Shown piece after piece: positions 1 to 10,228 of a DNA stretch of 11,035 nucleotides. The notes beneath the pieces were generated by a model. It searched no databases. It worked only from the letters and a program-made list of their open reading frames with translations, and was not told where the DNA came from. This stretch comes from a virus. The stretch lies in the UHGV virus genome UHGV-0227640. The stretch is one strand, 5' to 3'. Every line of letters begins with the position of its first letter. Position 1 is the first letter of the stretch. Made by a program: the position numbers and the translations under genes.

Positions 1-215
1 ACCCGTGCGTTACTGAAAAACGGCAGCAATGTTTTGTCTTCCACCAGCGGCTGGCGAACGGCAGGAACGACCCCGGACGGCAGATTACGCATGCTTTTCG
101 GTTCCGGCTCCACCAGTACCCGGGTATTGTGGAATACCGGCATGGATTCACGGCCTAGTTTAAGGACCACCAGCCCAAGCTCTGGCACCAGAACAGGTCT
201 AAGTAATACCCGCAC
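1..215 (-). CDS. Partial CDS running off the left edge (5' end only); hypothetical protein
   Basis: Manual translation of minus strand from GTG at 215-213: VRVLLRPVLVPELGLVVLKLGRESMPVFHNTRVLVEPEPKSMRNLPSGVVPAVRQPLVEDKTLLPFFSNAR... stays open to position 1. GGAGG lies 4 nt upstream, overlapping the TAA stop of the 217-495 gene. The plus-strand ORF 34-477 looks like its antisense shadow. Could instead be a frameshifted continuation of the 217-495 gene. Confidence 0.35.
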   Translation of the reverse strand, partial: MRVLLRPVLVPELGLVVLKLGRESMPVFHNTRVLVEPEPKSMRNLPSGVVPAVRQPLVEDKTLLPFFSNAR

Positions 216-216
216 G

Positions 217-495
217 TTACCTCCAGATCCGTTGCTGGAAAGTGCGGGACGCACGTGGTGGGCGTTCGGAATAAGGCAGCCTGACAGAGATTATCCAGTG
301 CCGATAGTCGAGACTGAGAGCTTTCTTAACCTCGAACCCGCGCCTGCGGTAAGAATGAATCAGCCATTCGGCCTGTTCTTCAGTGCATGGGGGATGCTGG
401 TACCAATCAGATTTAAATGCGTGAGAGCGCCGCCCGTGCCTGCTGGCAAAGACGGCAGAATCATCAGAATTGTGTAATTTGGTATCGTGCGCCAT
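217..495 (-). CDS. Hypothetical 92-aa protein
   Basis: ORF-track ORF (MAHDTKLHNSDDSAVFASRHGRR...). Weak SD. Sits just downstream of the terminator of the HTH-peptidase operon. No motif recognised. Confidence 0.45.
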   Translation of the reverse strand: MAHDTKLHNSDDSAVFASRHGRRSHAFKSDWYQHPPCTEEQAEWLIHSYRRRGFEVKKALSLDYRHWIISVRLPYSERPPRASRTFQQRIWR

Positions 496-562
496 CGGTT
501 GTCTCTGCTGGCGCAGCAGGTGCCAGTTGTTCAGGCTGGCCTGTGGATTGTAAACCAGAATA

Positions 563-590
563 CGTAAAACAAAAACCCGCCGAGGCGGGT
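563..590 (-). terminator. Rho-independent terminator of the two-gene operon
   Basis: Minus-strand hairpin ACCCGC-cucg-GCGGGU (plus 575-590) followed by UUUUUGUUUU, 12 nt after the TAA stop at 602-604. Confidence 0.6.
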
Positions 591-601
591 ATGAATGAGA
601 A

Positions 602-1747
602 TTATTTTTGTTTTATGGTAAATGAAATAACATTGTCAGAATGAATCATATCTGATTCTTTAAATCGTGTAATTGCAGATAACTCATTTAAGGGAAGAGC
701 AAAGATATCAGTTAACTCAGTTACCTTTATGATTGAATGCTTATCAAGAAGTAAAAGTAACTTATTAAGTAACTCAGGCTCTTCTTTTGGGATTGCATCA
801 TCTAACGGCTCCCTACGATGGAATGGCGCTAATTGCTTAAATATATAGCTTTTCTGATTATCGCTGATTAACTTAAGGCTATGACTCCTCATGGCAATAC
901 TACCGATAGATGTAATCCAACGTAGTTTTAATCGTTCTAACGCTGATAAATTTGGACTATAAAATTCACGCCCGAAAGTGGTGGCTGGCATTAAAAAGCT
1001 GGAGGCAAAATAATCGGCCTGCAACTCCACCAGGTCGAATAATTCTTTATCATTCAGGTAGTCATCCTCCACTGCCCTATGCATAATTAAATGGCCAAGT
1101 TCATGAGCAAGACTAAATCGCATGCGAACAGCCGTCTTCGAGCTATCTAACATAATTAAAGGCCGCCCATTATGCCAGAACGAAAAGGCATCAACTTTCT
1201 CACCAGAAGGTAAATGAGAAACCACGATTCCTTTATTTTCAACAAGTCTAGTTAAATTGAGTATTGGACCATCACCTAACCCCCAAAAACGCCTTAATTG
1301 GGTGGACATATCCTCAATATCAGATAGAGACAGAACCTCAAAATCAATAATATCGAATTCAGGCAGAACCACATCTGGTAATTGAGCATATTTTAGACAT
1401 TCATCCAATATTAATGCCGCCCAACGCCCACGTGTTTTCCCTGTAACTCGAGCCTTTTTGGTCGCAGTTGAACGACTTCTAAAATGAATCGCCCCCTCCA
1501 GAGATGGAGAAGCACTGGAGGCTAAGAAAAATCGTTCTGGAAATCCTAACACCTTGGCTATTGCAGAAAGTGTATCAGCAGAGGGAGACTTCAACCCCTT
1601 CTCAAATGACGAAATAGCTTGTCTTGAAATATTGAGCACTCTGGCAAGTTCAGCCATCGTCAACCCTTTTGCCTCTCTTGCCTCCTCAAGGCGACGAGGA
1701 TTAAACGATTTATCAGTAAATGGTGTTTGTGCGATATTCATGCTCAT
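602..1747 (-). CDS. XRE-family HTH fused to ImmA/IrrE-type (COG2856 / M78-like) zinc metallopeptidase; candidate antitoxin/regulator
   Basis: 381-aa ORF. N-terminal XRE HTH (GLTMAELARVLNISRQAISSFEKGLKSP). HEXXH motif HELGHLIMH at about residue 232, as in the ImmA/IrrE family. Start ATG overlaps the upstream stop (ATGA at 1744-1747). Terminator follows. Confidence 0.85.
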   Translation of the reverse strand: MSMNIAQTPFTDKSFNPRRLEEAREAKGLTMAELARVLNISRQAISSFEKGLKSPSADTLSAIAKVLGFPERFFLASSASPSLEGAIHFRSRSTATKKARVTGKTRGRWAALILDECLKYAQLPDVVLPEFDIIDFEVLSLSDIEDMSTQLRRFWGLGDGPILNLTRLVENKGIVVSHLPSGEKVDAFSFWHNGRPLIMLDSSKTAVRMRFSLAHELGHLIMHRAVEDDYLNDKELFDLVELQADYFASSFLMPATTFGREFYSPNLSALERLKLRWITSIGSIAMRSHSLKLISDNQKSYIFKQLAPFHRREPLDDAIPKEEPELLNKLLLLLDKHSIIKVTELTDIFALPLNELSAITRFKESDMIHSDNVISFTIKQK

Positions 1748-2358
1748 GATTGCTGTGATTTAATTATTTGTTCGGTAAGAATCTTGATTTTATCTTCAAT
1801 CTCAGAATCCACATTTTCTGCTTCAACTTCTACCATCGTCATAATTGGTAAAGACTCAGTATAAAGAATCCCGTAATTATCCGAAGAAGGAACAGTTAAA
1901 TTCAGTTTGGACAAGTGCTGATTACTGCCATCATGTAACATATAAACATGTCCACCAGACGCTCTCCCATCCAGGGAGTCGGCATTTTCATCCCCAAAAT
2001 TCAATTCATAATTTTGATTAGCGTAAACAGCTCTATACAATGCCTGCTTAGGAAGTGGCGCATTACCCGATAAATGATGTGCCGTCATTTTCCAGTTGTT
2101 CGAGTGAATCGCAATGTGTTTACAATTTTTAGCAGCATTGCTACCGACTTCAAAATCCAGCCCCACACGCTTAGCCGCATTCTCAAGCAATGCATCGGCA
2201 TAAAACCAGCGCAAATATGACTGTGCTTGAGCCCAAAAAGAACCAAACTCTTTTGCCTTCATATGCGAATGAAGATAAGCCTGTGCTAACGCGATCGAAA
2301 GCTCTTTGCGGCACTCCTTGTCATATGCTTCTAACAACTGTTGAGATAAATTCTGCAT
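1744..2358 (-). CDS. Hypothetical 204-aa protein, first gene of the operon; candidate toxin/effector partner of the HTH-peptidase
   Basis: 204-aa ORF. AAGGA about 12 nt upstream of ATG at 2358. Stop overlaps start of downstream gene. No transmembrane segment or catalytic motif I recognise (His/Asn-rich centre HIAIHSNNW...HHLSGN...GGHVYMLHDGSNQH, acidic C-terminus). Visibly more A+T-rich than the phage core genes. Confidence 0.75.
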   Translation of the reverse strand: MQNLSQQLLEAYDKECRKELSIALAQAYLHSHMKAKEFGSFWAQAQSYLRWFYADALLENAAKRVGLDFEVGSNAAKNCKHIAIHSNNWKMTAHHLSGNAPLPKQALYRAVYANQNYELNFGDENADSLDGRASGGHVYMLHDGSNQHLSKLNLTVPSSDNYGILYTESLPIMTMVEVEAENVDSEIEDKIKILTEQIIKSQQS

Positions 2359-2383
2359 GACCGTAATATCCTTGTTGTTTTGG

Positions 2384-2423
2384 TGTCAACCATATTTCCA
2401 TTTAACATCGACTTTGTCAACCA
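2384..2423. promoter_or_regulatory. Putative promoter/operator of the two-gene operon
   Basis: Minus strand reads GGTTGACA (plus 2415-2423) and again GGTTGACA (plus 2384-2392): a TTGACA -35-like hexamer plus a second copy 31 bp downstream near the expected transcription start. The -10 is weak (AAATAT/GAAATA). Possible autoregulatory site for the XRE HTH. Confidence 0.25.
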
Positions 2424-2435
2424 GGTAGATGCTAG

Positions 2436-2456
2436 AAAAACCCGCCGAAGCGGGTT
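2436..2456 (-). terminator. Rho-independent terminator downstream of hok
   Basis: Minus-strand hairpin AACCCGC-uucg-GCGGGUU followed by UUUUU. Core 20 bp AAAAACCCGCCGARGCGGGT is nearly identical to the terminator at 571-590. Confidence 0.6.
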
Positions 2457-2524
2457 AAGCGCGGGTGCATTGAGGATGCCTGACTCATCAGAGGTGGCGA
2501 GGGATTTCTCCCCCGCCTAGTCTC

Positions 2525-2680
2525 TTACTCCTCAGGTTCGTAAGCTGTGAAGACAGCGACCTCCGTCTGGCCGGTTCGGATTCGTACCTCGCAGAGGTCT
2601 TTCCTCGTTACCAGTGCCGTCACTATGACGGTTAAACAGATGACGATCAGGGCGATTAACATCGCCTTTTGCTGCTTCAT
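2525..2680 (-). CDS. hokD: Hok/Gef-family type I toxin (small membrane-depolarising peptide), HokD/RelF-like
   Basis: Not in ORF track (51 aa). Manual translation of minus strand 2680->2525: MKQQKAMLIALIVICLTVIVTALVTRKDLCEVRIRTGQTEVAVFTAYEPEE. AAGGAG 9 nt upstream. From memory this matches HokD (RelF) of E. coli K-12. No relB/relE upstream. Confidence 0.8.
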   Translation of the reverse strand: MKQQKAMLIALIVICLTVIVTALVTRKDLCEVRIRTGQTEVAVFTAYEPEE

Positions 2681-2938
2681 AGCCTGCTTCTCCTTGACCT
2701 TTCGGTCCGTAAGAGGCTAATCTCTATGTGTCGCATAGATATGGCCTCAGATTAATGTTAAGCGTCTTGCAGGACGCGTAATGTTAACTGGGGCTTTTCT
2801 CTATCTGCCTTTTGGTGTTCATGCCTGAGACAGATAGCCTCAAGCACCCGCAGTCATTCTACTTAACTAAGATTTCCCCGCAAACCGTTTTTGTCCGGCA
2901 CAGTAAATATCCAACTAAACCAATGGCGTTCGCTGTAT
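2677..2938 (-). promoter_or_regulatory. hok mRNA leader region; expected position of mok-like coupling ORF and antisense Sok-like RNA
   Basis: 258 bp with no long ORF. A 19-codon uORF (minus 2736->2677, MRHIEISLLRTERSRRSRL) ends in an ATGA overlap with the hok start. Plus-strand TTGACC (2694-2699), 18 bp, TAATCT (2718-2723) could drive an antisense RNA. Inverted repeat CTATCTG/CAGATAG at 2801-2837. Confidence 0.3.
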
Positions 2939-3118
2939 TTACCGCCAGTATTCAATGCACATGACCGCCATGAACACCCCTAAAAAAAGGGCATTTATAT
3001 ATCCAAATATTAATATCAAAACATCAACTTTTTCCATATACCTTGCTGTGAAGATGATGGGCATACATGATACGAACAACCAGAACGCAACAAACAAAAA
3101 CTGCAATGCGTTTTTCAT
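2939..3118 (-). CDS. Small hydrophobic protein (59 aa, two predicted transmembrane helices)
   Basis: MKNALQFLFVAFWLFVSCMPIIFTARYMEKVDVLILIFGYINALFLGVFMAVMCIEYWR. Strong SD (AGGAGG) 4 nt upstream of ATG at 3118. The ORF-track N-terminal extension to 3157 lacks an SD. Embedded in a strongly A+T-rich stretch (about 2950-3290). Confidence 0.55.
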   Translation of the reverse strand: MKNALQFLFVAFWLFVSCMPIIFTARYMEKVDVLILIFGYINALFLGVFMAVMCIEYWR

Positions 3119-3288
3119 TATTCCTCCTACAATCAATGTGCAATTACATTTAAACACACCTCAATTTGGCCGGACATATAAATATCTAAACCAGAAAAAA
3201 TCACTTACATAGCGTTACAAACTCTTTAGTCTAAATATTCATCGTAAAACATTCCCCATACTTATCAGCCCGTTCTGCGCCAGGTAGC

Positions 3289-3605
3289 TCATTGCCTTAT
3301 CTGGGAATCTGTAATCAGGTTTCCGGATGCTGGTGGATTTTCGCGTTTTAGTTGTTCATAAAAGTGCACAGCTTTAACCAGTTCTTCTGATGTAACCGGG
3401 ACTGGCGGGGCAGTGAATAAGGCCTGAATTTCATAGTTCGGCCTGTCGTTACAATCCTCTTTTTTCGGTACATATTTCCAGTCACCAGACCACTACTTCC
3501 CCTGAAAGTCCGTAACGCCTTTTTTTTCACGTAGCGATATCGCCATGCCACTGTTTTTGCTTGCCCCGCCGTTTCATGCCCTTCCTGATAATTAACCTCG
3601 CTCAT
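3289..3605 (-). pseudogene. Decayed Ea22-like paralog (frameshift plus in-frame stop)
   Basis: 5' end (GTG/ATG at 3605, MSEVNYQ...) is DNA-similar to the 5' ends of the Ea22-like genes at 6470 and 7092. After about 20 codons the listed frame turns implausible (basic, low complexity), while the +1 frame carries protein-like WSGDWKYVPKKEDCNDRPNYEIQALFTAPPVPVTSEELVKAVHFYEQLKRENPPASGNLITDSQIRQ ending at 3289, preceded by TAG. Homopolymer runs (T8 at 3520-3527, T6 at 3470-3475) are likely slippage sites. Confidence 0.4.
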
Positions 3606-3778
3606 TCATCGCCCCACTCATCACAATATGCTTCGACCGGAGTTTTTCCTGCTTCATAATCATCACGCCATGCTTCAGCATCAGCAGCACTGCCACCACG
3701 TAACTCTGCATAGTCCATTAACAGTTCATGCCATGCTTCAAAACTGACGTTGTATTTAGTTGAACCAAAATCAGCCAT
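3602..3778 (-). CDS. Small acidic protein (58 aa), hypothetical
   Basis: Manual translation: MADFGSTKYNVSFEAWHELLMDYAELRGGSAADAEAWRDDYEAGKTPVEAYCDEWGDE. GAGG about 10 nt upstream. Start overlaps stop of the 3771-3953 gene and its stop overlaps the start at 3605 (ATGA). Below ORF-track cutoff. Confidence 0.5.
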   Translation of the reverse strand: MADFGSTKYNVSFEAWHELLMDYAELRGGSAADAEAWRDDYEAGKTPVEAYCDEWGDE

Positions 3779-3953
3779 TTTGCTCTTCCTCTTCGTCTTT
3801 TATTTCGTGATATGAGTAATTGCAGTAGTTAAAGAAAATATCTTTTGCTTCGTCATGTATTTCATCAGGCGTCGCATCATCATCCACTTCGAATTCATCC
3901 TCGAAATCTCCACCGGCTATTCCCGTTTCAATAATTATTTTAAACTTTCGCAT
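3771..3953 (-). CDS. Small highly acidic protein (60 aa), hypothetical; possible DNA-mimic
   Basis: ORF-track ORF MRKFKIIIETGIAGGDFEDEFEVDDDATPDEIHDEAKDIFFNYCNYSYHEIKDEEEEQNG; about 20 of 60 residues are Asp/Glu. Preceded by a structured leader (hairpins at 3961-3976 and 3991-4009). Confidence 0.55.
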   Translation of the reverse strand: MRKFKIIIETGIAGGDFEDEFEVDDDATPDEIHDEAKDIFFNYCNYSYHEIKDEEEEQNG

Positions 3954-4046
3954 TTAACTACCGCCCTTTCGGGCGGCCTCCTGATGTTCTGAGGGTGCAG
4001 AAATCCCTCCGGTTAAGGATTAAATTTTTAACAGAGCTAAATTTAA

Positions 4047-4403
4047 TTATTCAGTTCTGGATTTTGTCGCCCTGCGTATCCGCGCTTTCGCGTTACGCTC
4101 AATCTGAATTAGCTTTTCTATATTTTTTCGCCTTTCCTGTTCCTCCTGGCGCAATAGCCTTACATCATCTGCCAGTCTGGTTTCTCTTTTCGCCACAGAG
4201 AGCATCCAGTCAAATGGTTCCACAACTGCACCGCAGATTTTACAGCGGACCTGACGCTCTTTTTCGTCAACCCGGACAGAGGCGTGATGACAATATGGTC
4301 TTTCCGATGGCTCATAAAGAAAATTAACCTGATTACGAGGGTCATCCTCTTTTACCGGAAATAAAACGATATTGCTTAACTCATCCTCTGGTTTTATTTC
4401 CAT
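4047..4403 (-). CDS. Hypothetical protein (118 aa) with zinc-ribbon-like Cys/His cluster and basic coiled-coil tail
   Basis: Internal start MEIKPEDE... at 4403 with AAGGAGAGGAG upstream; the ORF-track extension to 4460 lacks an SD. PYCHH...CKICG motif. C-terminus rich in R/K/E (RRKNIEKLIQIERNAKARIRRATKSRTE). Confidence 0.6.
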   Translation of the reverse strand: MEIKPEDELSNIVLFPVKEDDPRNQVNFLYEPSERPYCHHASVRVDEKERQVRCKICGAVVEPFDWMLSVAKRETRLADDVRLLRQEEQERRKNIEKLIQIERNAKARIRRATKSRTE

Positions 4404-4524
4404 GCTCCTCTCCTTTGATGCGAATGCCAGCGGTAATTGAAGCCTGATAGCTAATTTCACTCACAGTACCGCCTCCTGAAAATTTAATGAACAATTCAAT
4501 ACGTTCTTTGGTAATAGTGGTCAT
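4381..4524 (-). pseudogene. Chimeric 47-codon ORF / deletion scar of an Ea22-like gene
   Basis: MTTITKERIELFIKFSGGGTVSEISYQASITAGIRIKGEEHGNKTRG. The first 21 bp match the 5' end of the gene at 5207 (19/21). The middle contains the TTTTCAGGAGG module. Then an Ea22-like N-terminus (VSEISYQA) is fused directly to the Ea22 C-terminal codons (AGIRIKGE; DNA CCGCTGGCATTCGCATCAAAGGAGAG identical to 5726-5751). Confidence 0.3.
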
Positions 4525-4534
4525 GTGTTACTCC

Positions 4535-4798
4535 TTAACCCGCAGTGCTTTCAACTGATGAGGGGAACAAAATCTTTTCATCAAACCCTGCATTCATATC
4601 ATGAACAGCAACACACCAATCCATCGACGAACGATTATCAAGAGCCTCCATGATTTCATCCATGCGGCGCAGGTCATACAGGTAAATGCTTTTATCGCCA
4701 ATGGTGTAAAAACCAATTTTTTTCGGTGATGGGCAGCGATCAAGAACGTCCTGTAATTCGTTCAACCATGCCCGTTCTTTTTTTGTTAAAGTTGCCAT
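4535..4798 (-). CDS. Hypothetical phage protein (87 aa)
   Basis: Internal start MATLTKKERAWLNELQDVL... at 4798 with AAGGAGAG SD; upstream stop at 4800-4802. The ORF-track extension to 4858 overlaps the upstream gene. Confidence 0.6.
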   Translation of the reverse strand: MATLTKKERAWLNELQDVLDRCPSPKKIGFYTIGDKSIYLYDLRRMDEIMEALDNRSSMDWCVAVHDMNAGFDEKILFPSSVESTAG

Positions 4799-4799
4799 A

Positions 4800-5207
4800 T
4801 CACTCTCCTTTCCCATGAAGCATAGCGGCGCGGCAGGCGTTCCATATTTCGGCAGCAATATCGCGCTCGCTATCGGTTAATTTGTACGTGGAAACATAGC
4901 CAGAGAGCATTTCTACGTTTTCCGGAGTTGCTTCTTCCGGCACTATCGGCGCTGGAGGGGCGGCAAATAGATATCCGCCAAAGTCAGGAAGCTCTCCAAT
5001 GGCCTGTACGAACTTTTGTTTGCCTACGTCAACTCCTAATGGGTAATGAGCTATAATCTTTGCCACCGGCTCTGCTTCCAGCGATACCAGTGCAATTCGT
5101 GCCAGTTCTTCCGCTTCTTCTGCTGGCAGTACAACGTTGCTACCCGGTCCGTATGTTTCGCGCCACTGCTTGATTGTCAGCAGTCGCCCTTTGGTAATAG
5201 TGATCAT
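4800..5207 (-). CDS. Hypothetical phage protein (135 aa)
   Basis: ORF-track ORF MITITKGRLLTIKQW...; ATGA overlap with the upstream gene at 5204-5207. Confidence 0.65.
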   Translation of the reverse strand: MITITKGRLLTIKQWRETYGPGSNVVLPAEEAEELARIALVSLEAEPVAKIIAHYPLGVDVGKQKFVQAIGELPDFGGYLFAAPPAPIVPEEATPENVEMLSGYVSTYKLTDSERDIAAEIWNACRAAMLHGKGE

Positions 5208-5719
5208 GCCGCGTTTCCTTCTTTCTTATTAACAATCACACCGTCATATATTTCATTAAGGTGCCCTCTCAACTCCATGCGCCTTAATGCAGATAACATG
5301 TAATCGCATTCAACCTGCTTATTCCCAGTAAATGGCTTATCGTCAGGATTACCCCAACAGCAATTACCCCTGGGCCATCCATGTACTTTCCGTACTCTTC
5401 CGTTAACAACGTGAAGTAATCCCCAGCCGGGAGGTAAATCCTCAACTGAAATAATTTCCGGCTCACTAATAAAGAATCGCCAGTCGCCCATGCCAAGTGA
5501 GGGATTTTTACGGAAACGCTTTTTTCTATCTGCCAACAAGTCAGCACGAGAACACTTCGCCTCTATCAGGCATGATGCTGAATTTCTGAATCCCATAGCA
5601 TCTGGCTGTTCTCCGGTACTGGTTACAGCAACAAAGCGGTCATGAAAGCAAACCTTGAACCCGTTGCGCTTAAGGAACTTGTACGCAATCTGACAGAGTT
5701 CGCGGTGTGTTAACGCCAT
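5204..5719 (-). CDS. Hypothetical phage protein (171 aa), possible PD-(D/E)xK-type nuclease fold
   Basis: ORF-track ORF. Pattern ...QPDAMGF...CLIEAKCSRADL resembles the D...ExK catalytic signature. Assignment tentative. Confidence 0.65.
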   Translation of the reverse strand: MALTHRELCQIAYKFLKRNGFKVCFHDRFVAVTSTGEQPDAMGFRNSASCLIEAKCSRADLLADRKKRFRKNPSLGMGDWRFFISEPEIISVEDLPPGWGLLHVVNGRVRKVHGWPRGNCCWGNPDDKPFTGNKQVECDYMLSALRRMELRGHLNEIYDGVIVNKKEGNAA

Positions 5720-5720
5720 A

Positions 5721-6470
5721 TCACTCTCCTTTGATGCGAATGCCAGCGGCGCGGATTGCAGCGATGACTTCAGAAACTTTGTATGCCATTACCGTTTGGT
5801 AATCATCGTGAAAATCTGTTCGATGAAGCATGCTGCTACGTTCCGGGAGCGATATTTCCCGAGCATCCAGTTCCTTAACGCGTTCCTCCAGTTCGTAGAC
5901 CCTGCATTGTTCTCTATCATCAATCAGATATAACCCAAGACATTCGCTTTCTACCCAACCGCCAAAATCATGATCGTAACGCTCACATGAAAACTCACCG
6001 TCACCGTCCTTTGTTGGAATGGTGTAACTATCTAATGGGCCACCATATGTCGGCACATTCCCCAATGTTGGATGCTCAATCCACATGAAAAATGCACGTC
6101 CGGTTATTGGGCAAATATCTGGCCGCCATTGGTTACGAACAGCCTTGGTTTCGGATAATTCTTCAGCGTGTTGTTTTACTTCCTCAAGCTCAACTCTCAG
6201 CTTCCCTACCGTTAGCGCAATATCCTCGTTCTCCTGGTCGCGGCGTTTGATGTATTGCTGGTTCCTTTCCCGTTCATCCAGTAGTGCCAGCACGGTTTCT
6301 GGTCCGGTCAGAAATTTGAAGGCATTGAGCGCATCAATATCCACACCGTAATCTTTAAGTTCCTGTTCACTTAACAAATCATCATCAGTTGGCAACATTA
6401 ACAGGCGTTCCATTGCTGGAATTGCACGTTCTGCTGCCTCACGCAGTGCCTGGTAATTAATTTCGCTCAC
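5721..6470 (-). CDS. Ea22-like (ead/Ea22 family) early protein, 249 aa
   Basis: GTG start at 6470 with AAGGAGG upstream. N-terminus MSEINYQALREAAERA is characteristic of lambdoid Ea22-like proteins as I recall them. Coiled-coil-like middle. C-terminus ...AGIRIKGE. Confidence 0.7.
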   Translation of the reverse strand: MSEINYQALREAAERAIPAMERLLMLPTDDDLLSEQELKDYGVDIDALNAFKFLTGPETVLALLDERERNQQYIKRRDQENEDIALTVGKLRVELEEVKQHAEELSETKAVRNQWRPDICPITGRAFFMWIEHPTLGNVPTYGGPLDSYTIPTKDGDGEFSCERYDHDFGGWVESECLGLYLIDDREQCRVYELEERVKELDAREISLPERSSMLHRTDFHDDYQTVMAYKVSEVIAAIRAAGIRIKGE

Positions 6471-6910
6471 TGGTTGCCTCCTTTGCGAAGCTCTGCGGCT
6501 AAATACTCCAACGCCATTACCGGGACGCCAACAAGCACAGTTCCTTTAAACTTCTTATGCAGGTGCTCGATAGCTGTATCCACGCCCTGCGCCCGTACTT
6601 CAGCCAGGAAAGCATCGGTGGCCGGAGTTTCAGGAATCCGTCTCCTCATCAGTTCTATTGCATGATTGAACCCGAAATCTTCAGCAAGAGATACGTCATC
6701 CATATTGTCATTGTCGTCCTCAATATCCCGTGGTTCTGGAATTGCAGACTTTATTACCGCATTCTCCGCCGCCAGCGCCGCGCACTTGGCCTCAAGAGCG
6801 GCAACCACTTCCTGATGGTCTTTGTACTTAACGTATGAGCCGGAGATGTCATCACCTTCGGTGTTTAGCCATGCGTCATTGCAATTCACTGCGTAGGTTC
6901 TGATGCTCAT
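6467..6910 (-). CDS. Hypothetical phage protein (147 aa); possibly the C-terminal part of a split Ea22-like gene
   Basis: Start MSIRTYAVNCND... at 6910 with GGGAGAG upstream; ATGA overlap with the stop of the 61-aa ORF. The ORF-track extension to 6967 is read in the frame overlapping that ORF. Confidence 0.55.
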   Translation of the reverse strand: MSIRTYAVNCNDAWLNTEGDDISGSYVKYKDHQEVVAALEAKCAALAAENAVIKSAIPEPRDIEDDNDNMDDVSLAEDFGFNHAIELMRRRIPETPATDAFLAEVRAQGVDTAIEHLHKKFKGTVLVGVPVMALEYLAAELRKGGNQ

Positions 6911-7092
6911 GTTGATGCTCTCCCGCCCCTGACAGACGCCAGGCCAGTCAATAAAGTATCCGCACAATGCCTACCCTCAGACGTGCGCGCAGGATAAATG
7001 CCGTTATGACCCGGCAAAATATATGCTACCCATTCATCTTGCGTTGCCTGTTCCGCCGCCTCGCGCAGTGCCTGATAGTCAATCTTGCTCAC
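6907..7092 (-). CDS. Ea22-like N-terminal fragment (61 aa); truncated paralog or 5' part of a frameshifted gene spanning 6467-7092
   Basis: GTG start at 7092. MSKIDYQALREAAEQATQDEW matches the N-terminus of the 249-aa Ea22-like protein. DNA at 7040-7092 is about 80% identical to 6421-6470. Confidence 0.45.
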   Translation of the reverse strand: MSKIDYQALREAAEQATQDEWVAYILPGHNGIYPARTSEGRHCADTLLTGLASVRGGRAST

Positions 7093-7573
7093 TGGTCGCC
7101 TCCTTCATAAAAATAATCCAGTGGGTCTTGTCACCCTTTCCTGTTCGTTGACCGATAACAGGCTTTCTGTCGGTCAGTGCCAATATCTGGCGAACAGGTA
7201 TTTGCGTTTCATTCCATTTAAAAATCAGAACGCTGTATGGCCGCAACACACGAAAGGCTTCTTTAAATCCCTGCCGCAAATCATCACGCCAGGTATCTTT
7301 ATTCAGCCGTCCATATTTCTTTCCCATCCAGGCGTTATCACCAACACGCTCAAGATGCGGAGGGTCGAATACAACAACCGGAAACGATGCGTCTGCAAAT
7401 GGTAATGCACGAAAATCTGCTATCAGGTCAGGGCTAATTATCAGTCTTCGTCCATCACATAATGTGTGCTCTTCCTTTCTGATATCGCTAAATATCGCCC
7501 GGTCGTCATTCTTATCGAACCAGAACATGCGGCTGCCACAGCACATATCAAGAATGGTTGCCGGTGCACTCAC
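7079..7573 (-). CDS. Small SAM-dependent DNA methyltransferase (orphan; N6-adenine or N4-cytosine type)
   Basis: 164-aa ORF. Motif I-like ILDMCCGSRMFWFD near the N-terminus and motif IV-like VVVFDPPH. GTG start overlapping the upstream stop (GTGA). No adjacent restriction enzyme gene. Confidence 0.6.
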   Translation of the reverse strand: MSAPATILDMCCGSRMFWFDKNDDRAIFSDIRKEEHTLCDGRRLIISPDLIADFRALPFADASFPVVVFDPPHLERVGDNAWMGKKYGRLNKDTWRDDLRQGFKEAFRVLRPYSVLIFKWNETQIPVRQILALTDRKPVIGQRTGKGDKTHWIIFMKEATSEQD

Positions 7574-7992
7574 TGCGCTACCTCCTGAAAATTACCCTGA
7601 TAAAACGACAATATGCGCTGCATAACTTCGCTCTTCCGGCACTCGCGACAGATTATGTTCTGACGCCTGTCGTAGCGGCGTATTTCGCCGTCTGGTAATA
7701 GCCAGATAAGGTCCGGATCAACCACAGATGGTTTCTTCAGCTTTGCCCTTGAGAGTTTTTTGCGGGCGTTTTGCCAGTCCTTGCGCGCCTGCTCAGACGG
7801 GAATACTCCGTAACCGGAATTGTAAACATCACCACTGGCGGCCAGCTCCATGCATAAACGACCGACAGACGCATGACTGACACCAATTTCATCCGATAAC
7901 TGCCGAATCGTGCCTCGTCCGTTAAGGCGTACGAATTCCACGATCAGCCCTTTAATTTTTTCCCGCTCTTCTTGTGTAAAAACTTTTGCCAC
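7570..7992 (-). CDS. HTH (winged-helix-like) DNA-binding protein, 140 aa
   Basis: ORF-track ORF. GTG start with GGAGG 5 nt upstream. HTH-like segment GTIRQLSDEIGVSHASVGRLCMELA. Confidence 0.6.
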   Translation of the reverse strand: MAKVFTQEEREKIKGLIVEFVRLNGRGTIRQLSDEIGVSHASVGRLCMELAASGDVYNSGYGVFPSEQARKDWQNARKKLSRAKLKKPSVVDPDLIWLLPDGEIRRYDRRQNIICRECRKSEVMQRILSFYQGNFQEVAQ

Positions 7993-9808: not shown

Positions 9809-10228
9809 ATGGACAAATATGAATTTAGACGACAGCAACTCATCAAAATTCGTGATGAGAAATGCGATGGTAAAGCGGTTAACGTGGCCAGAAAGATCGG
9901 GCGCGAGCCTTCTTATGTATCAAGAATGTTGTACCCAGAGGGGAAAAAGGGAAAAAAACGGATCGCTGATGATATGGTGGAGATTATCGAAGAGTCCTTT
10001 GGGTTACCCCGGGGATGGATGGATGGTATCGTTTCATCATCAACGAACACAGCCTCCAGTTATGAAACAAGGGTTCTAACGCCACGACAACGTATTTTTT
10101 TAGATCTCTTAGACGAACTGCCAGAAAGTGAAGCGGATAAATTATTAAAAACTCTTGAAGAGAAAAAACAGTATTACAATATGATCTACGAAGAAATCCG
10201 TAAAAAGAAAGCACAAAACGCATCATAG
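9809..10228 (+). CDS. Prophage repressor-like HTH protein (positional equivalent of CI/DicA/RacR), 139 aa
   Basis: ORF-track ORF. HTH-like segment AVNVARKIGREPSYVSRMLYP. C-terminal ...LDELPESEADKLLKTL resembles the DicA C-terminal region as I recall it. No S24 peptidase domain. Confidence 0.7.
   Translation: MDKYEFRRQQLIKIRDEKCDGKAVNVARKIGREPSYVSRMLYPEGKKGKKRIADDMVEIIEESFGLPRGWMDGIVSSSTNTASSYETRVLTPRQRIFLDLLDELPESEADKLLKTLEEKKQYYNMIYEEIRKKKAQNAS

What the first reader, a model, noticed from the sequence alone, without database searches (positions are those of the whole stretch)
602..2358. Two-gene operon: unknown 204-aa protein coupled to an XRE-HTH + ImmA/IrrE metallopeptidase fusion - candidate novel toxin-antitoxin / anti-phage module
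Seen: two co-directional genes with a 4-bp ATGA stop-start overlap, own promoter region and own terminator. The second protein has an N-terminal XRE HTH and a HELGH zinc-peptidase motif. The first has no motif I can recognise. The cassette is visibly more A+T-rich than the surrounding phage genes and sits beside a hok toxin in prophage cargo. Established: fused Xre-COG2856 proteins act as antitoxin or regulator partners for diverse toxins (for example the RosmerTA defence family), and ImmA-type peptidases cleave cognate HTH repressors. Inference: the 204-aa protein is a toxin/effector held in check by the HTH-peptidase, possibly an abortive-infection system of an undescribed effector family.
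Basis: partly seen in the sequence, partly recalled or inferred. Interest (0 to 1): 0.85.

Follow-up and report, generated by a model that had tools for sequence, protein, structure and literature searches.

The report
RosmerTA toxin-antitoxin defence cassette in prophage
The two genes are a member of the already described RosmerTA family of toxin-antitoxin anti-phage modules, carried as self-expressed cargo in E. coli lambdoid prophages; the find is ordinary in kind, but this toxin lineage has never been tested and its mode of action is unknown.

Summary
Two minus-strand genes (204 aa at 2358..1744; 381 aa at 1747..602) overlap by ATGA. They have their own promoter and terminator, are AT-rich (40% GC against 51-54% in the flanks) and lie next to hokD/sok. 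The module is not new. The 381-aa protein matches PADLOC's RmrA models over its full length (E=5.5e-102) and is 31% identical to the experimentally verified RmrA. The "unknown" 204-aa protein matches RmrT models (E=7.5e-10), and all 60 of its distant relatives hit RmrT model PDLC03933 (best 1.8e-53). So this is a RosmerTA system (Millman 2022). The identical cassette occurs in 41 of 5,426 complete E. coli genomes and in phage Tritos of strain LF82, where both genes are transcribed in the lysogen. New points: this toxin lineage is unrelated in sequence to the verified RmrT; it has no membrane segment; its confident AlphaFold model weakly resembles restriction-endonuclease-fold proteins but lacks their catalytic motif. 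A pair of GGTTGACA repeats over the -35 element and the transcription start is conserved from E. coli to Firmicutes, which suggests autoregulation by the HTH domain. Toxicity, defence and mechanism remain inferred. Interest is modest.

The parts
1744..2358 (-). rmrT: 204-aa predicted toxin of the PDLC03933-like RmrT lineage; soluble and acidic, with no transmembrane segment
   Evidence: ORF. PADLOC RmrT PDLC03933 E=7.5e-10 and PDLC03934 E=6e-8. All 60 remote homologs hit PDLC03933. PHROG 35814 matched full length, function unknown. AF2 model pLDDT 87. Maximum Kyte-Doolittle score over 19 residues is 0.7; pI 5.7.
602..1747 (-). rmrA: 381-aa predicted antitoxin/regulator, made of an XRE HTH, an M78 Zn-peptidase and a C-terminal region of about 90 aa
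   Evidence: PADLOC RmrA PDLC03947 E=5.5e-102, aa 11-380. Pfam HTH_3 plus Peptidase_M78. 31% identity over 354 aa (E=4e-41) to the verified E. coli OLC-716 RmrA.
1529..1690 (-). XRE-type helix-turn-helix domain of RmrA (aa 20-73)
   Evidence: Pfam HTH_3 E=2.4e-16. The recognition-helix motif SRQxIS is conserved in all partners of this toxin lineage.
887..1240 (-). M78 (ImmA/IrrE-type) metallopeptidase domain of RmrA (aa 170-287); HELGH lies at nt 1091-1105
   Evidence: Pfam Peptidase_M78 E=9.7e-19. H215, E216, H219, E241 and D245 are invariant from E. coli to a Firmicute homolog.
2384..2422 (-). Predicted promoter/operator: distal GGTTGACA (2422..2415, with -35 TTGACA at 2420..2415), a 17-nt spacer, -10 AAATAT (2397..2392), then proximal GGTTGACA (2391..2384) at the predicted transcription start
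   Evidence: Direct repeat 31 bp apart. These are the only two GGTTGACA copies in the window, against 0.3 expected. Both are invariant in five cassettes whose proteins are 45-66% identical. The same layout occurs in Zymomonas, Agathobaculum, Enterococcus-phage and Lacticaseibacillus-phage cassettes. The function is inferred.
565..590 (-). Intrinsic terminator of the operon (stem 590..575 followed by a T-run)
   Evidence: Terminator scan: 6-bp stem with 5 GC pairs, loop of 4, tail TTTTGTTTTA.
2436..2456 (-). Upstream hairpin plus T-run (the hokD terminator) that insulates the cassette from read-through
   Evidence: Read directly from the sequence: AACCCGC-TTCG-GCGGGTT-TTT on the minus strand. 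An equivalent hairpin with a T-run precedes the promoter in variants L027 and L029.

Best explanation
This is a RosmerTA-family two-gene toxin-antitoxin module carried as an autonomously expressed moron in E. coli lambdoid prophages. The operon is transcribed in the lysogen from its own sigma-70 promoter, whose -35 element lies inside the distal GGTTGACA repeat. The second repeat sits at the transcription start. Inferred step: the XRE HTH of RmrA binds both repeats and autorepresses the operon. RmrT (204 aa) is a soluble growth-arresting effector, and RmrA is translationally coupled to it through the ATGA overlap and keeps it inactive. Inferred step: RmrA does this by binding RmrT and/or cleaving it with its intact HEXXH metallopeptidase, possibly with ClpXP clearing the product, as reported for other Rosmer systems. 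Inferred step: infection by another phage disturbs this balance, RmrT is released and the infection aborts, protecting the lysogen population. The effector has an alpha/beta core that weakly resembles the restriction-endonuclease (PD-(D/E)XK) fold. It carries conserved Asn, His, Thr and Arg residues instead of the canonical acidic/lysine triad. My best guess is therefore a non-canonical nucleic-acid-directed activity or a protein-binding activity, not membrane depolarisation.
For: Family identity: RmrA full-length E=5.5e-102; RmrT E=7.5e-10. All 60 remote toxin homologs hit RmrT PDLC03933, best 1.8e-53. RmrA is 31% identical over its full length to the verified RmrA.
Conserved pairing: in all 29 evaluable loci (about 13 distinct lineages: Enterobacterales, Zymomonas, Agathobaculum, Enterococcus and Lacticaseibacillus phages) the toxin is immediately followed by an RmrA gene.
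Mobility: the module sits at different sites, namely the nin-region next to hokD, between cI and N, after a primase, in a tRNA-Gly island and on a plasmid.
Expression: in LF82/Tritos, whose cassette is 99.9% identical, both genes are transcribed 30-fold and 14-fold above prophage background in the lysogen (PMC9928086 Table 1).
Active site: HELGH, E241 and D245 are invariant.
Promoter/operator: conserved across phyla.
Family precedent: a verified RosmerTA defends E. coli and delta-rmrA could not be transformed (Millman preprint). rmrA is essential in three Pectobacteriaceae, as is clpX. ClpX or ClpP dependence was reported for RipAB and the E101 module.
Against: Nobody has tested this toxin lineage for toxicity, neutralisation or phage defence.
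The one RmrT verified by Millman (PDLC03935 type) shows no sequence similarity to it. "RmrT" is a positional label covering unrelated families, so function cannot be transferred from toxin to toxin.
The window protein's own RmrT match is partial (aa 47-161).
The RmrA partners of this lineage fall below the spr1629/RipB equivalog cutoff (187-223 bits against 335). The DnaN and ClpX findings therefore come from a different sub-lineage.
In PD-lambda-2 the Xre-peptidase itself was the toxic component, so the roles could be reversed here.
I could not run PADLOC's or DefenseFinder's system-level rules.
Confidence: 0.78

Rival explanations
1. It is a plain addiction or stabilisation module, or a stress-response TA, that helps keep the prophage region in the chromosome and has no role against other phages.
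For: TA architecture with translational coupling. rmrA is essential wherever Rosmer systems are present in Pectobacteriaceae. RipAB in S. pneumoniae is linked to competence and replication stress rather than to phage defence. The neighbouring hok/sok is a classical post-segregational killing system.
Against: Two RosmerTA systems, from E. coli OLC-716 and Gordonia phage Kita, do protect against phages. The cassette sits in typical prophage moron positions and moves between unrelated elements, and RosmerTA is among the systems enriched in phage genomes. Addiction and defence do not exclude each other.
Confidence: 0.12
2. The roles are reversed or different. The HTH-peptidase is the harmful or effector component, as PD-lambda-2B is, and the 204-aa protein is its inhibitor, sensor or substrate.
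For: In PD-lambda-2, overexpressing the Xre-peptidase alone was toxic and the upstream HigB-like protein rescued it. The 204-aa protein has no recognisable catalytic motif. PADLOC gives a weak PD-Lambda-2_B hit for RmrA (E=0.002).
Against: In verified Rosmer systems the upstream gene is the toxin: delta-rmrA could not be transformed, RipA is toxic and RipB rescues it, Vmi480 is strongly toxic and Vmi470 is its antidote, and the E101 suppressor maps to the upstream gene. The PD-lambda-2_B match is far weaker than the RmrA match (1e-102).
Confidence: 0.06
3. The HTH-peptidase is the prophage's own ImmA-like anti-repressor or induction switch, acting on the 9809-10228 repressor.
For: ImmA/ImmR, IrrE/DdrO and CapP/CapH are M78 peptidases that cleave XRE repressors. 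PADLOC gives capP E=1.5e-21 and capH E=1.7e-10.
Against: The cassette block (window 1-2868) is 99.3% identical in three prophages whose repressors differ. The Tritos CI is only 39% identical with a different N-terminal half, and the Ecol_316 repressor is unrelated. Relatives sit in a tRNA-Gly island, on a Zymomonas plasmid, and in phages with S24 LexA-type repressors. The HTH and peptidase are fused, and the upstream 200-aa partner is invariably linked. The conserved operator lies in the cassette's own promoter.
Confidence: 0.03

Closest known systems
RosmerTA (RmrT/RmrA) of E. coli OLC-716, verified by Millman et al. 2022
   Same: Gene order is toxin then antitoxin. RmrA has the same HTH + M78 + C-terminal architecture and is 31% identical over 354 aa. 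Both proteins match PADLOC Rmr models. Both are E. coli accessory elements.
   Different: The toxins are unrelated in sequence: BLASTP finds nothing and hhalign gives probability 0.1. They match different PADLOC models, PDLC03935/03932 for OLC-716 and PDLC03933/03934/03937/03940 for the window. Defence has been shown for OLC-716 only.
RipA/RipB (Spr1630/Spr1629) of Streptococcus pneumoniae, a Rosmer-family TA whose toxin acts on the DnaN sliding clamp and needs ClpX for containment (PMC12795458)
   Same: The antitoxin is an Xre-HTH + ImmA-like protein, homologous to the window's RmrA (NCBIfam NF052239, 187 bits, E=4.8e-55). The toxin is the upstream gene.
   Different: The window's RmrA and every RmrA paired with this toxin lineage score 187-223 bits against a cutoff of 335, and all best match a different PADLOC RmrA model. 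RipAB is chromosomal, not prophage-borne. I could not obtain the RipA sequence, so toxin homology is untested.
RmrTA of Gordonia phage Kita (Ernits et al. 2023, PMC10440598)
   Same: It is phage-encoded, has an ImmA-protease RmrA antitoxin, and gives narrow anti-phage defence.
   Different: The Kita toxin (D5) has a predicted membrane-localised C-terminus and depolarises the membrane. The window toxin has no hydrophobic segment (maximum KD 0.7) and is predicted to be a soluble alpha/beta protein.
Vmi480/Vmi470 of Vibrio mimicus and the E. coli E101 prophage module WP_001179380.1/WP_000481765.1, which makes clpP essential (Luo 2015; Rousset 2021)
   Same: A toxin of unknown function lies upstream of an HTH + Zn-peptidase antidote, the genes are tightly linked, and the elements are a genomic island and a prophage.
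   Different: The accessions differ from the window's (WP_001180546.1/WP_000062344.1). I could not retrieve the sequences, so whether they belong to the same toxin lineage is unknown.
ImmA/ImmR (ICEBs1), IrrE/DdrO (Deinococcus), CapP/CapH (CBASS regulators)
   Same: They use the same two domains, an M78 metallopeptidase and an XRE HTH, and the HTH represses a promoter.
   Different: There the two domains are separate proteins, and the peptidase cleaves the repressor to induce an element, a regulon or a defence operon. Here the domains are fused, paired with a toxin, and independent of the prophage immunity region.

Membership tests
RosmerTA (Millman 2022; PADLOC/DefenseFinder definition) | RmrA: a protein of about 360-400 aa with an N-terminal XRE HTH and an M78 Zn-peptidase carrying HEXXH | tested here: met
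   PADLOC RmrA PDLC03947 E=5.5e-102, full length. Pfam HTH_3 + Peptidase_M78. HELGH, E241 and D245 are invariant. 31% identical to the verified RmrA.
RosmerTA (Millman 2022; PADLOC/DefenseFinder definition) | An adjacent co-directional gene that matches one of the RmrT toxin models | tested here: met
   PDLC03933 E=7.5e-10, PDLC03934 E=6e-8, PDLC03937 E=1.5e-4. All 60 remote homologs hit PDLC03933. The genes overlap by 4 bp. PADLOC's system-level thresholds could not be run.
RosmerTA (Millman 2022; PADLOC/DefenseFinder definition) | Sequence homology of the toxin to the experimentally verified RmrT (E. coli OLC-716) | tested here: not met
   BLASTP finds no similarity and hhalign gives probability 0.1. 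The verified toxin hits other models, PDLC03935/03932. The family is defined with several unrelated toxin clusters, so this does not exclude membership.
RosmerTA (Millman 2022; PADLOC/DefenseFinder definition) | The toxin arrests growth and RmrA neutralises it | not testable with these tools
   Only indirect support exists: precedent in other Rosmer systems and strict gene linkage.
RosmerTA (Millman 2022; PADLOC/DefenseFinder definition) | Protection against phage infection | not testable with these tools
   Shown for the OLC-716 and Kita systems only.
spr1629/RipB equivalog (NCBIfam NF052239) | Score at or above the curated cutoff of 335 bits | tested here: not met
   The window RmrA scores 187.2 bits. 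The RmrA partners of the same toxin lineage score 210-223 bits.
ImmA/ImmR-type anti-repressor of a mobile element | The peptidase acts on, and co-varies with, the element's own separately encoded repressor | tested here: not met
   The identical cassette sits beside three different repressors. Relatives occur in non-phage islands and on a plasmid. The HTH is fused to the peptidase.
PD-(D/E)XK (restriction-endonuclease-like) nuclease superfamily, considered for the 204-aa toxin | The alpha-beta-beta-beta-alpha-beta core fold | tested here: inconclusive
PD-(D/E)XK (restriction-endonuclease-like) nuclease superfamily, considered for the 204-aa toxin | The catalytic D...(D/E)-x-K motif | tested here: not met
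   The family-wide conserved residues are Y28, N74, N78, H81, T92, R/K104, R109, N116, H142 and E181. No conserved acidic/lysine triad lies on the strands.
Membrane-depolarising RmrT (Kita D5 type) | A predicted transmembrane or membrane-anchoring segment | tested here: not met
   The maximum 19-residue Kyte-Doolittle score is 0.7. The model is a soluble alpha/beta protein with an acidic linker.

The most novel reading that the evidence does not exclude
The PDLC03933-like RmrT lineage may be a new kind of effector: a restriction-endonuclease-fold derivative that has swapped the metal-binding D/E/K triad for a conserved Asn-Asn-His-Thr-Arg-His constellation. It might act as a metal-independent nuclease or as a non-catalytic binder of a replication or translation factor. 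It would be held in check by RmrA proteolysis coupled to ClpXP, and the whole sub-lineage would share an ancient GTTGACA direct-repeat operator read by the RmrA HTH domain. That would give a first mechanism for the most widespread soluble RmrT class and explain why ClpX or ClpP becomes essential in Rosmer-carrying strains.
Probability: 0.3. Interest if true: 0.55.

Novelty: new member of a known kind. Interest (0 to 1): 0.3.

Why it matters
The cassette itself adds one more catalogued defence/TA system to a prophage. Current tools (PADLOC, and probably DefenseFinder) would flag it, although RefSeq and the Tritos/LF82 annotation still call the toxin "hypothetical" and the LF82 moron study did not recognise the pair. 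Its value is as an accessible model. An identical copy sits in the well-studied AIEC strain LF82 (prophage Tritos) and is expressed in the lysogen. The toxin belongs to a broad lineage (Proteobacteria and Firmicutes) that has not been characterised. Working out its target, the role of the M78 peptidase, the suspected ClpXP link and the conserved operator would clarify how RosmerTA systems work in general. That is still largely unknown beyond one membrane toxin and one clamp-targeting toxin.

Tried and rejected
1. AlphaFold on the shallow 9-sequence alignment gave an unusable model (pLDDT 40). It was replaced by the 60-sequence run.
2. Foldseek against afdb50 was unavailable.
3. Both scans of reference genomes (genome contigs), with enterobacterial and Lactobacillales toxin alignments, found no confirmed relative.
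4. I tried to decide whether the toxin is homologous to pneumococcal RipA (Spr1630), to the E101 toxin WP_001179380.1 or to Vmi480. I could not obtain those sequences. Cluster look-ups of 20 family representatives returned only "hypothetical protein" from Morganella, Alcaligenes and Pseudomonas. Millman's supplementary tables list neither LF82 nor per-genome model names for S. pneumoniae in the stored part. The question stays open. Indirect evidence from RmrA sub-family scores suggests RipAB is a different sub-lineage.
5. The word-indexed protein search with the 60-sequence profile returned only 12 hits and added nothing.
6. NCBIfam and Pfam scans of all 60 family members found no family. A PDB sequence search with the profile found nothing.
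7. I considered a DnaN clamp-binding motif at the toxin N-terminus (QQLLEAY). I dropped it because it does not fit QL[SD]LF, lies in a predicted helix, and is not conserved across the family.
8. I considered a third gene. The 92-aa ORF at 217-495 lies after the terminator, and the downstream genes differ among relatives, so the module has two genes.
Full report
OBSERVATION. The minus strand carries two ORFs, 2358..1744 (204 aa) and 1747..602 (381 aa). The stop of the first overlaps the start of the second in ATGA. An intrinsic terminator (stem 590..575 plus T-run) follows the second gene by 12 nt. A second hairpin with a T-run at 2456..2436 ends the neighbouring hokD transcript and insulates the cassette (read). 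The cassette is 40% GC, against 54% in the left flank, 51% in the right flank and 47% in the rest of the window. The neighbour at 2525-2680 is a genuine Hok (PF01848, E=1.2e-23) with its sok RNA (Rfam RF01794, 2678-2849).

IDENTITY. The 381-aa protein has HTH_3 (aa 20-73) and Peptidase_M78 (aa 170-287). It matches PADLOC's RmrA models end to end (PDLC03947, E=5.5e-102). It is 31% identical over 354 residues (E=4e-41) to the RmrA of E. coli OLC-716, the RosmerTA operon that Millman et al. verified experimentally. The 204-aa protein has no Pfam or NCBIfam hit, but it matches four PADLOC RmrT models (best PDLC03933, E=7.5e-10). To test that modest match, I built a profile from close homologs and searched 1.84 billion cluster representatives. 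That gave 78 hits, mostly 200-220 aa. All 60 full-length hits match PDLC03933 (best E=1.8e-53), and many also match PDLC03940, 03938, 03934 and 03937. The protein is therefore a divergent member of a catalogued RmrT lineage, and the pair is a RosmerTA system.

DISTRIBUTION AND CONTEXT. The cassette is 100% identical in 41 of 5,426 complete E. coli genomes, including LF82, and in Escherichia phage Tritos. There it lies between hokD and a 92-aa ORF, a DUF968 gene and the Q antiterminator of a Qin/Rac-like lambdoid prophage integrated near rspB. RefSeq names the proteins WP_001180546.1 (hypothetical) and WP_000062344.1. E. coli also carries two further alleles, 56% and 45% toxin identity, in another prophage and in a tRNA-Gly island. 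More distant members occur in Salmonella, Citrobacter, Yersinia, Morganella, Alcaligenes, Pseudomonas, Zymomonas (on a plasmid), Agathobaculum, and Enterococcus and Lacticaseibacillus phages. In every locus with enough sequence (29 of 29, about 13 lineages), an RmrA gene follows the toxin directly, usually overlapping it. The insertion site differs between elements: next to hokD, between cI and N, after a primase, or beside a holin/amidase pair. The two genes therefore travel as one unit.

NOT AN ANTI-REPRESSOR. Window 1-2868 is 99.3% identical to Tritos and to the Ecol_316 prophage. The next 4.7 kb and the immunity region are different. The window's repressor (9809-10228) is only 39% identical to the Tritos CI, with a different N-terminal half, and is unrelated to the Ecol_316 repressor. 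This contradicts an ImmA/ImmR-type switch tied to the prophage's own repressor.

EXPRESSION AND REGULATION. RNA-seq of LF82 showed LF82_281 (hypothetical) at 30-fold and LF82_280 (ImmA/IrrE) at 14-fold above the prophage background in the lysogen. The authors listed both as morons but did not recognise them as a TA or defence pair (PMC9928086). Upstream of rmrT, GGTTGACA occurs twice, 31 bp apart. These are the only two copies in the window, against 0.3 expected. The distal copy contains a perfect -35 TTGACA. Seventeen nt downstream lies AAATAT, and the proximal copy follows immediately, at the expected transcription start. Both copies are invariant in five cassettes whose proteins are only 45-66% identical, while the surrounding DNA has diverged. 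The same layout (GTTGACA, about 14 nt, nAAtAT, then GTTnACA) recurs in Zymomonas, Agathobaculum, Enterococcus-phage and Lacticaseibacillus-phage cassettes. The RmrA partners share the recognition-helix motif SRQxIS. I infer that RmrA binds these repeats and autorepresses the operon. This is not shown.

THE ANTITOXIN. H215, E216 and H219 (HELGH, nt 1091-1105) plus E241 and D245 are invariant from E. coli to a Firmicute homolog, so the peptidase is probably active. No solved structure is closer than CapP (E=1.8e-5).

RELATION TO CHARACTERISED ROSMER SYSTEMS. The verified OLC-716 RmrT (239 aa) has no detectable similarity to the window toxin or its family profile, and it hits different PADLOC models. 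"RmrT" therefore covers unrelated toxins. In S. pneumoniae, RipA/RipB (Spr1630/Spr1629) is a Rosmer TA whose toxin acts on the DnaN clamp, and ClpX is needed to contain it. A prophage Rosmer-like module makes clpP essential in E. coli E101. clpX and rmrA are essential only in the Pectobacteriaceae strains that carry RosmerTA. The window's RmrA, and every RmrA paired with this toxin lineage, score 187-223 bits on NCBI's spr1629 model (cutoff 335), and all best match PDLC03947. RipAB is thus probably another sub-lineage. I could not retrieve the RipA, E101 or Vmi480 toxin sequences, so their homology to this toxin is untested.

VERDICT. This is a RosmerTA-family toxin-antitoxin module carried as prophage cargo. 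Shown here: family membership by homology, strict gene linkage, mobility, independence from the immunity region, an intact peptidase motif and a conserved promoter/operator. Shown by others: expression in the lysogen. Inferred: toxicity, neutralisation by binding or proteolysis, ClpXP involvement, abortive-infection defence and the toxin's biochemical activity. Novelty: a new member of a known kind. Interest is modest (0.3). The main value is that a widespread, uncharacterised soluble RmrT lineage is available in the tractable LF82/Tritos system.

Noticed in passing
window 2384-2422; also L003, L005, L007, L009-L012, L014, L027, L029-L031 upstream of the toxin gene: The promoter layout (GTTGACA at -35, about 14 nt, nAAtAT, then a second GTTnACA at the transcription start) is conserved in RosmerTA cassettes of this lineage from Gammaproteobacteria and Alphaproteobacteria to Firmicutes. 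This suggests an ancient operator for the RmrA HTH domain. I found no description of it in the papers I read.
   Followed up: partly
window 2525-2849: A complete hok/sok type I TA lies right next to the cassette: HokD-like 51-aa toxin (PF01848) and sok RNA (Rfam RF01794, 106.7 bits). In LF82, HokD is the most highly expressed Tritos moron (3792-fold above background).
   Followed up: partly
window 2868/2869 and about 7587: Sharp mosaic junctions. Window 1-2868 is 99.3% identical to Tritos and the Ecol_316 prophage. Window 2869-7587 has no counterpart in either, and similarity returns only in patches of 75-95% identity.
   Followed up: partly
window 5204-5719 (-): This 171-aa ORF has no Pfam hit but carries a textbook PD...E-x-K signature (EQPDAMGF ... 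CLIEAKCS), so it looks like an unannotated PD-(D/E)XK nuclease in the prophage early region.
   Followed up: no
window 7079-7573 (-): This 164-aa ORF has no Pfam hit at E<=0.001. It contains a DPPH motif (VVVFDPPH) typical of N6-adenine/N4-cytosine DNA methyltransferases and may be a small orphan prophage methyltransferase.
   Followed up: no
window 5721-6470 and 6907-7092 (-): Two ORFs begin with nearly the same Ead/Ea22-like N-terminus (MSEINYQALREAAERA and MSKIDYQALREAAEQA). The second is only 61 aa and overlaps the 166-aa ORF at 6467-6967, which suggests a duplicated or frameshifted Ead/Ea22 module.
   Followed up: no
L009 2839-3990 (NZ_CP027312.1): RefSeq annotates the rmrA homolog as 353 aa starting at locus position 3900. 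The ORF actually runs to 3990 (383 aa) and abuts the toxin stop as in the other cassettes, so the start is probably mis-called.
   Followed up: partly
window 217-495 (-): A 92-aa ORF (WP_015912508.1, hypothetical, no Pfam hit) always accompanies the identical cassette in E. coli, between rmrA's terminator and the DUF968 gene. It is absent from more distant cassettes.
   Followed up: partly
L013 (Paenibacillus phage Dash, OP503990.1): An RmrA homolog (38% identity) has no toxin of this lineage upstream; an S8 peptidase gene precedes it. It may be paired with a different partner, possibly a downstream one.
   Followed up: no
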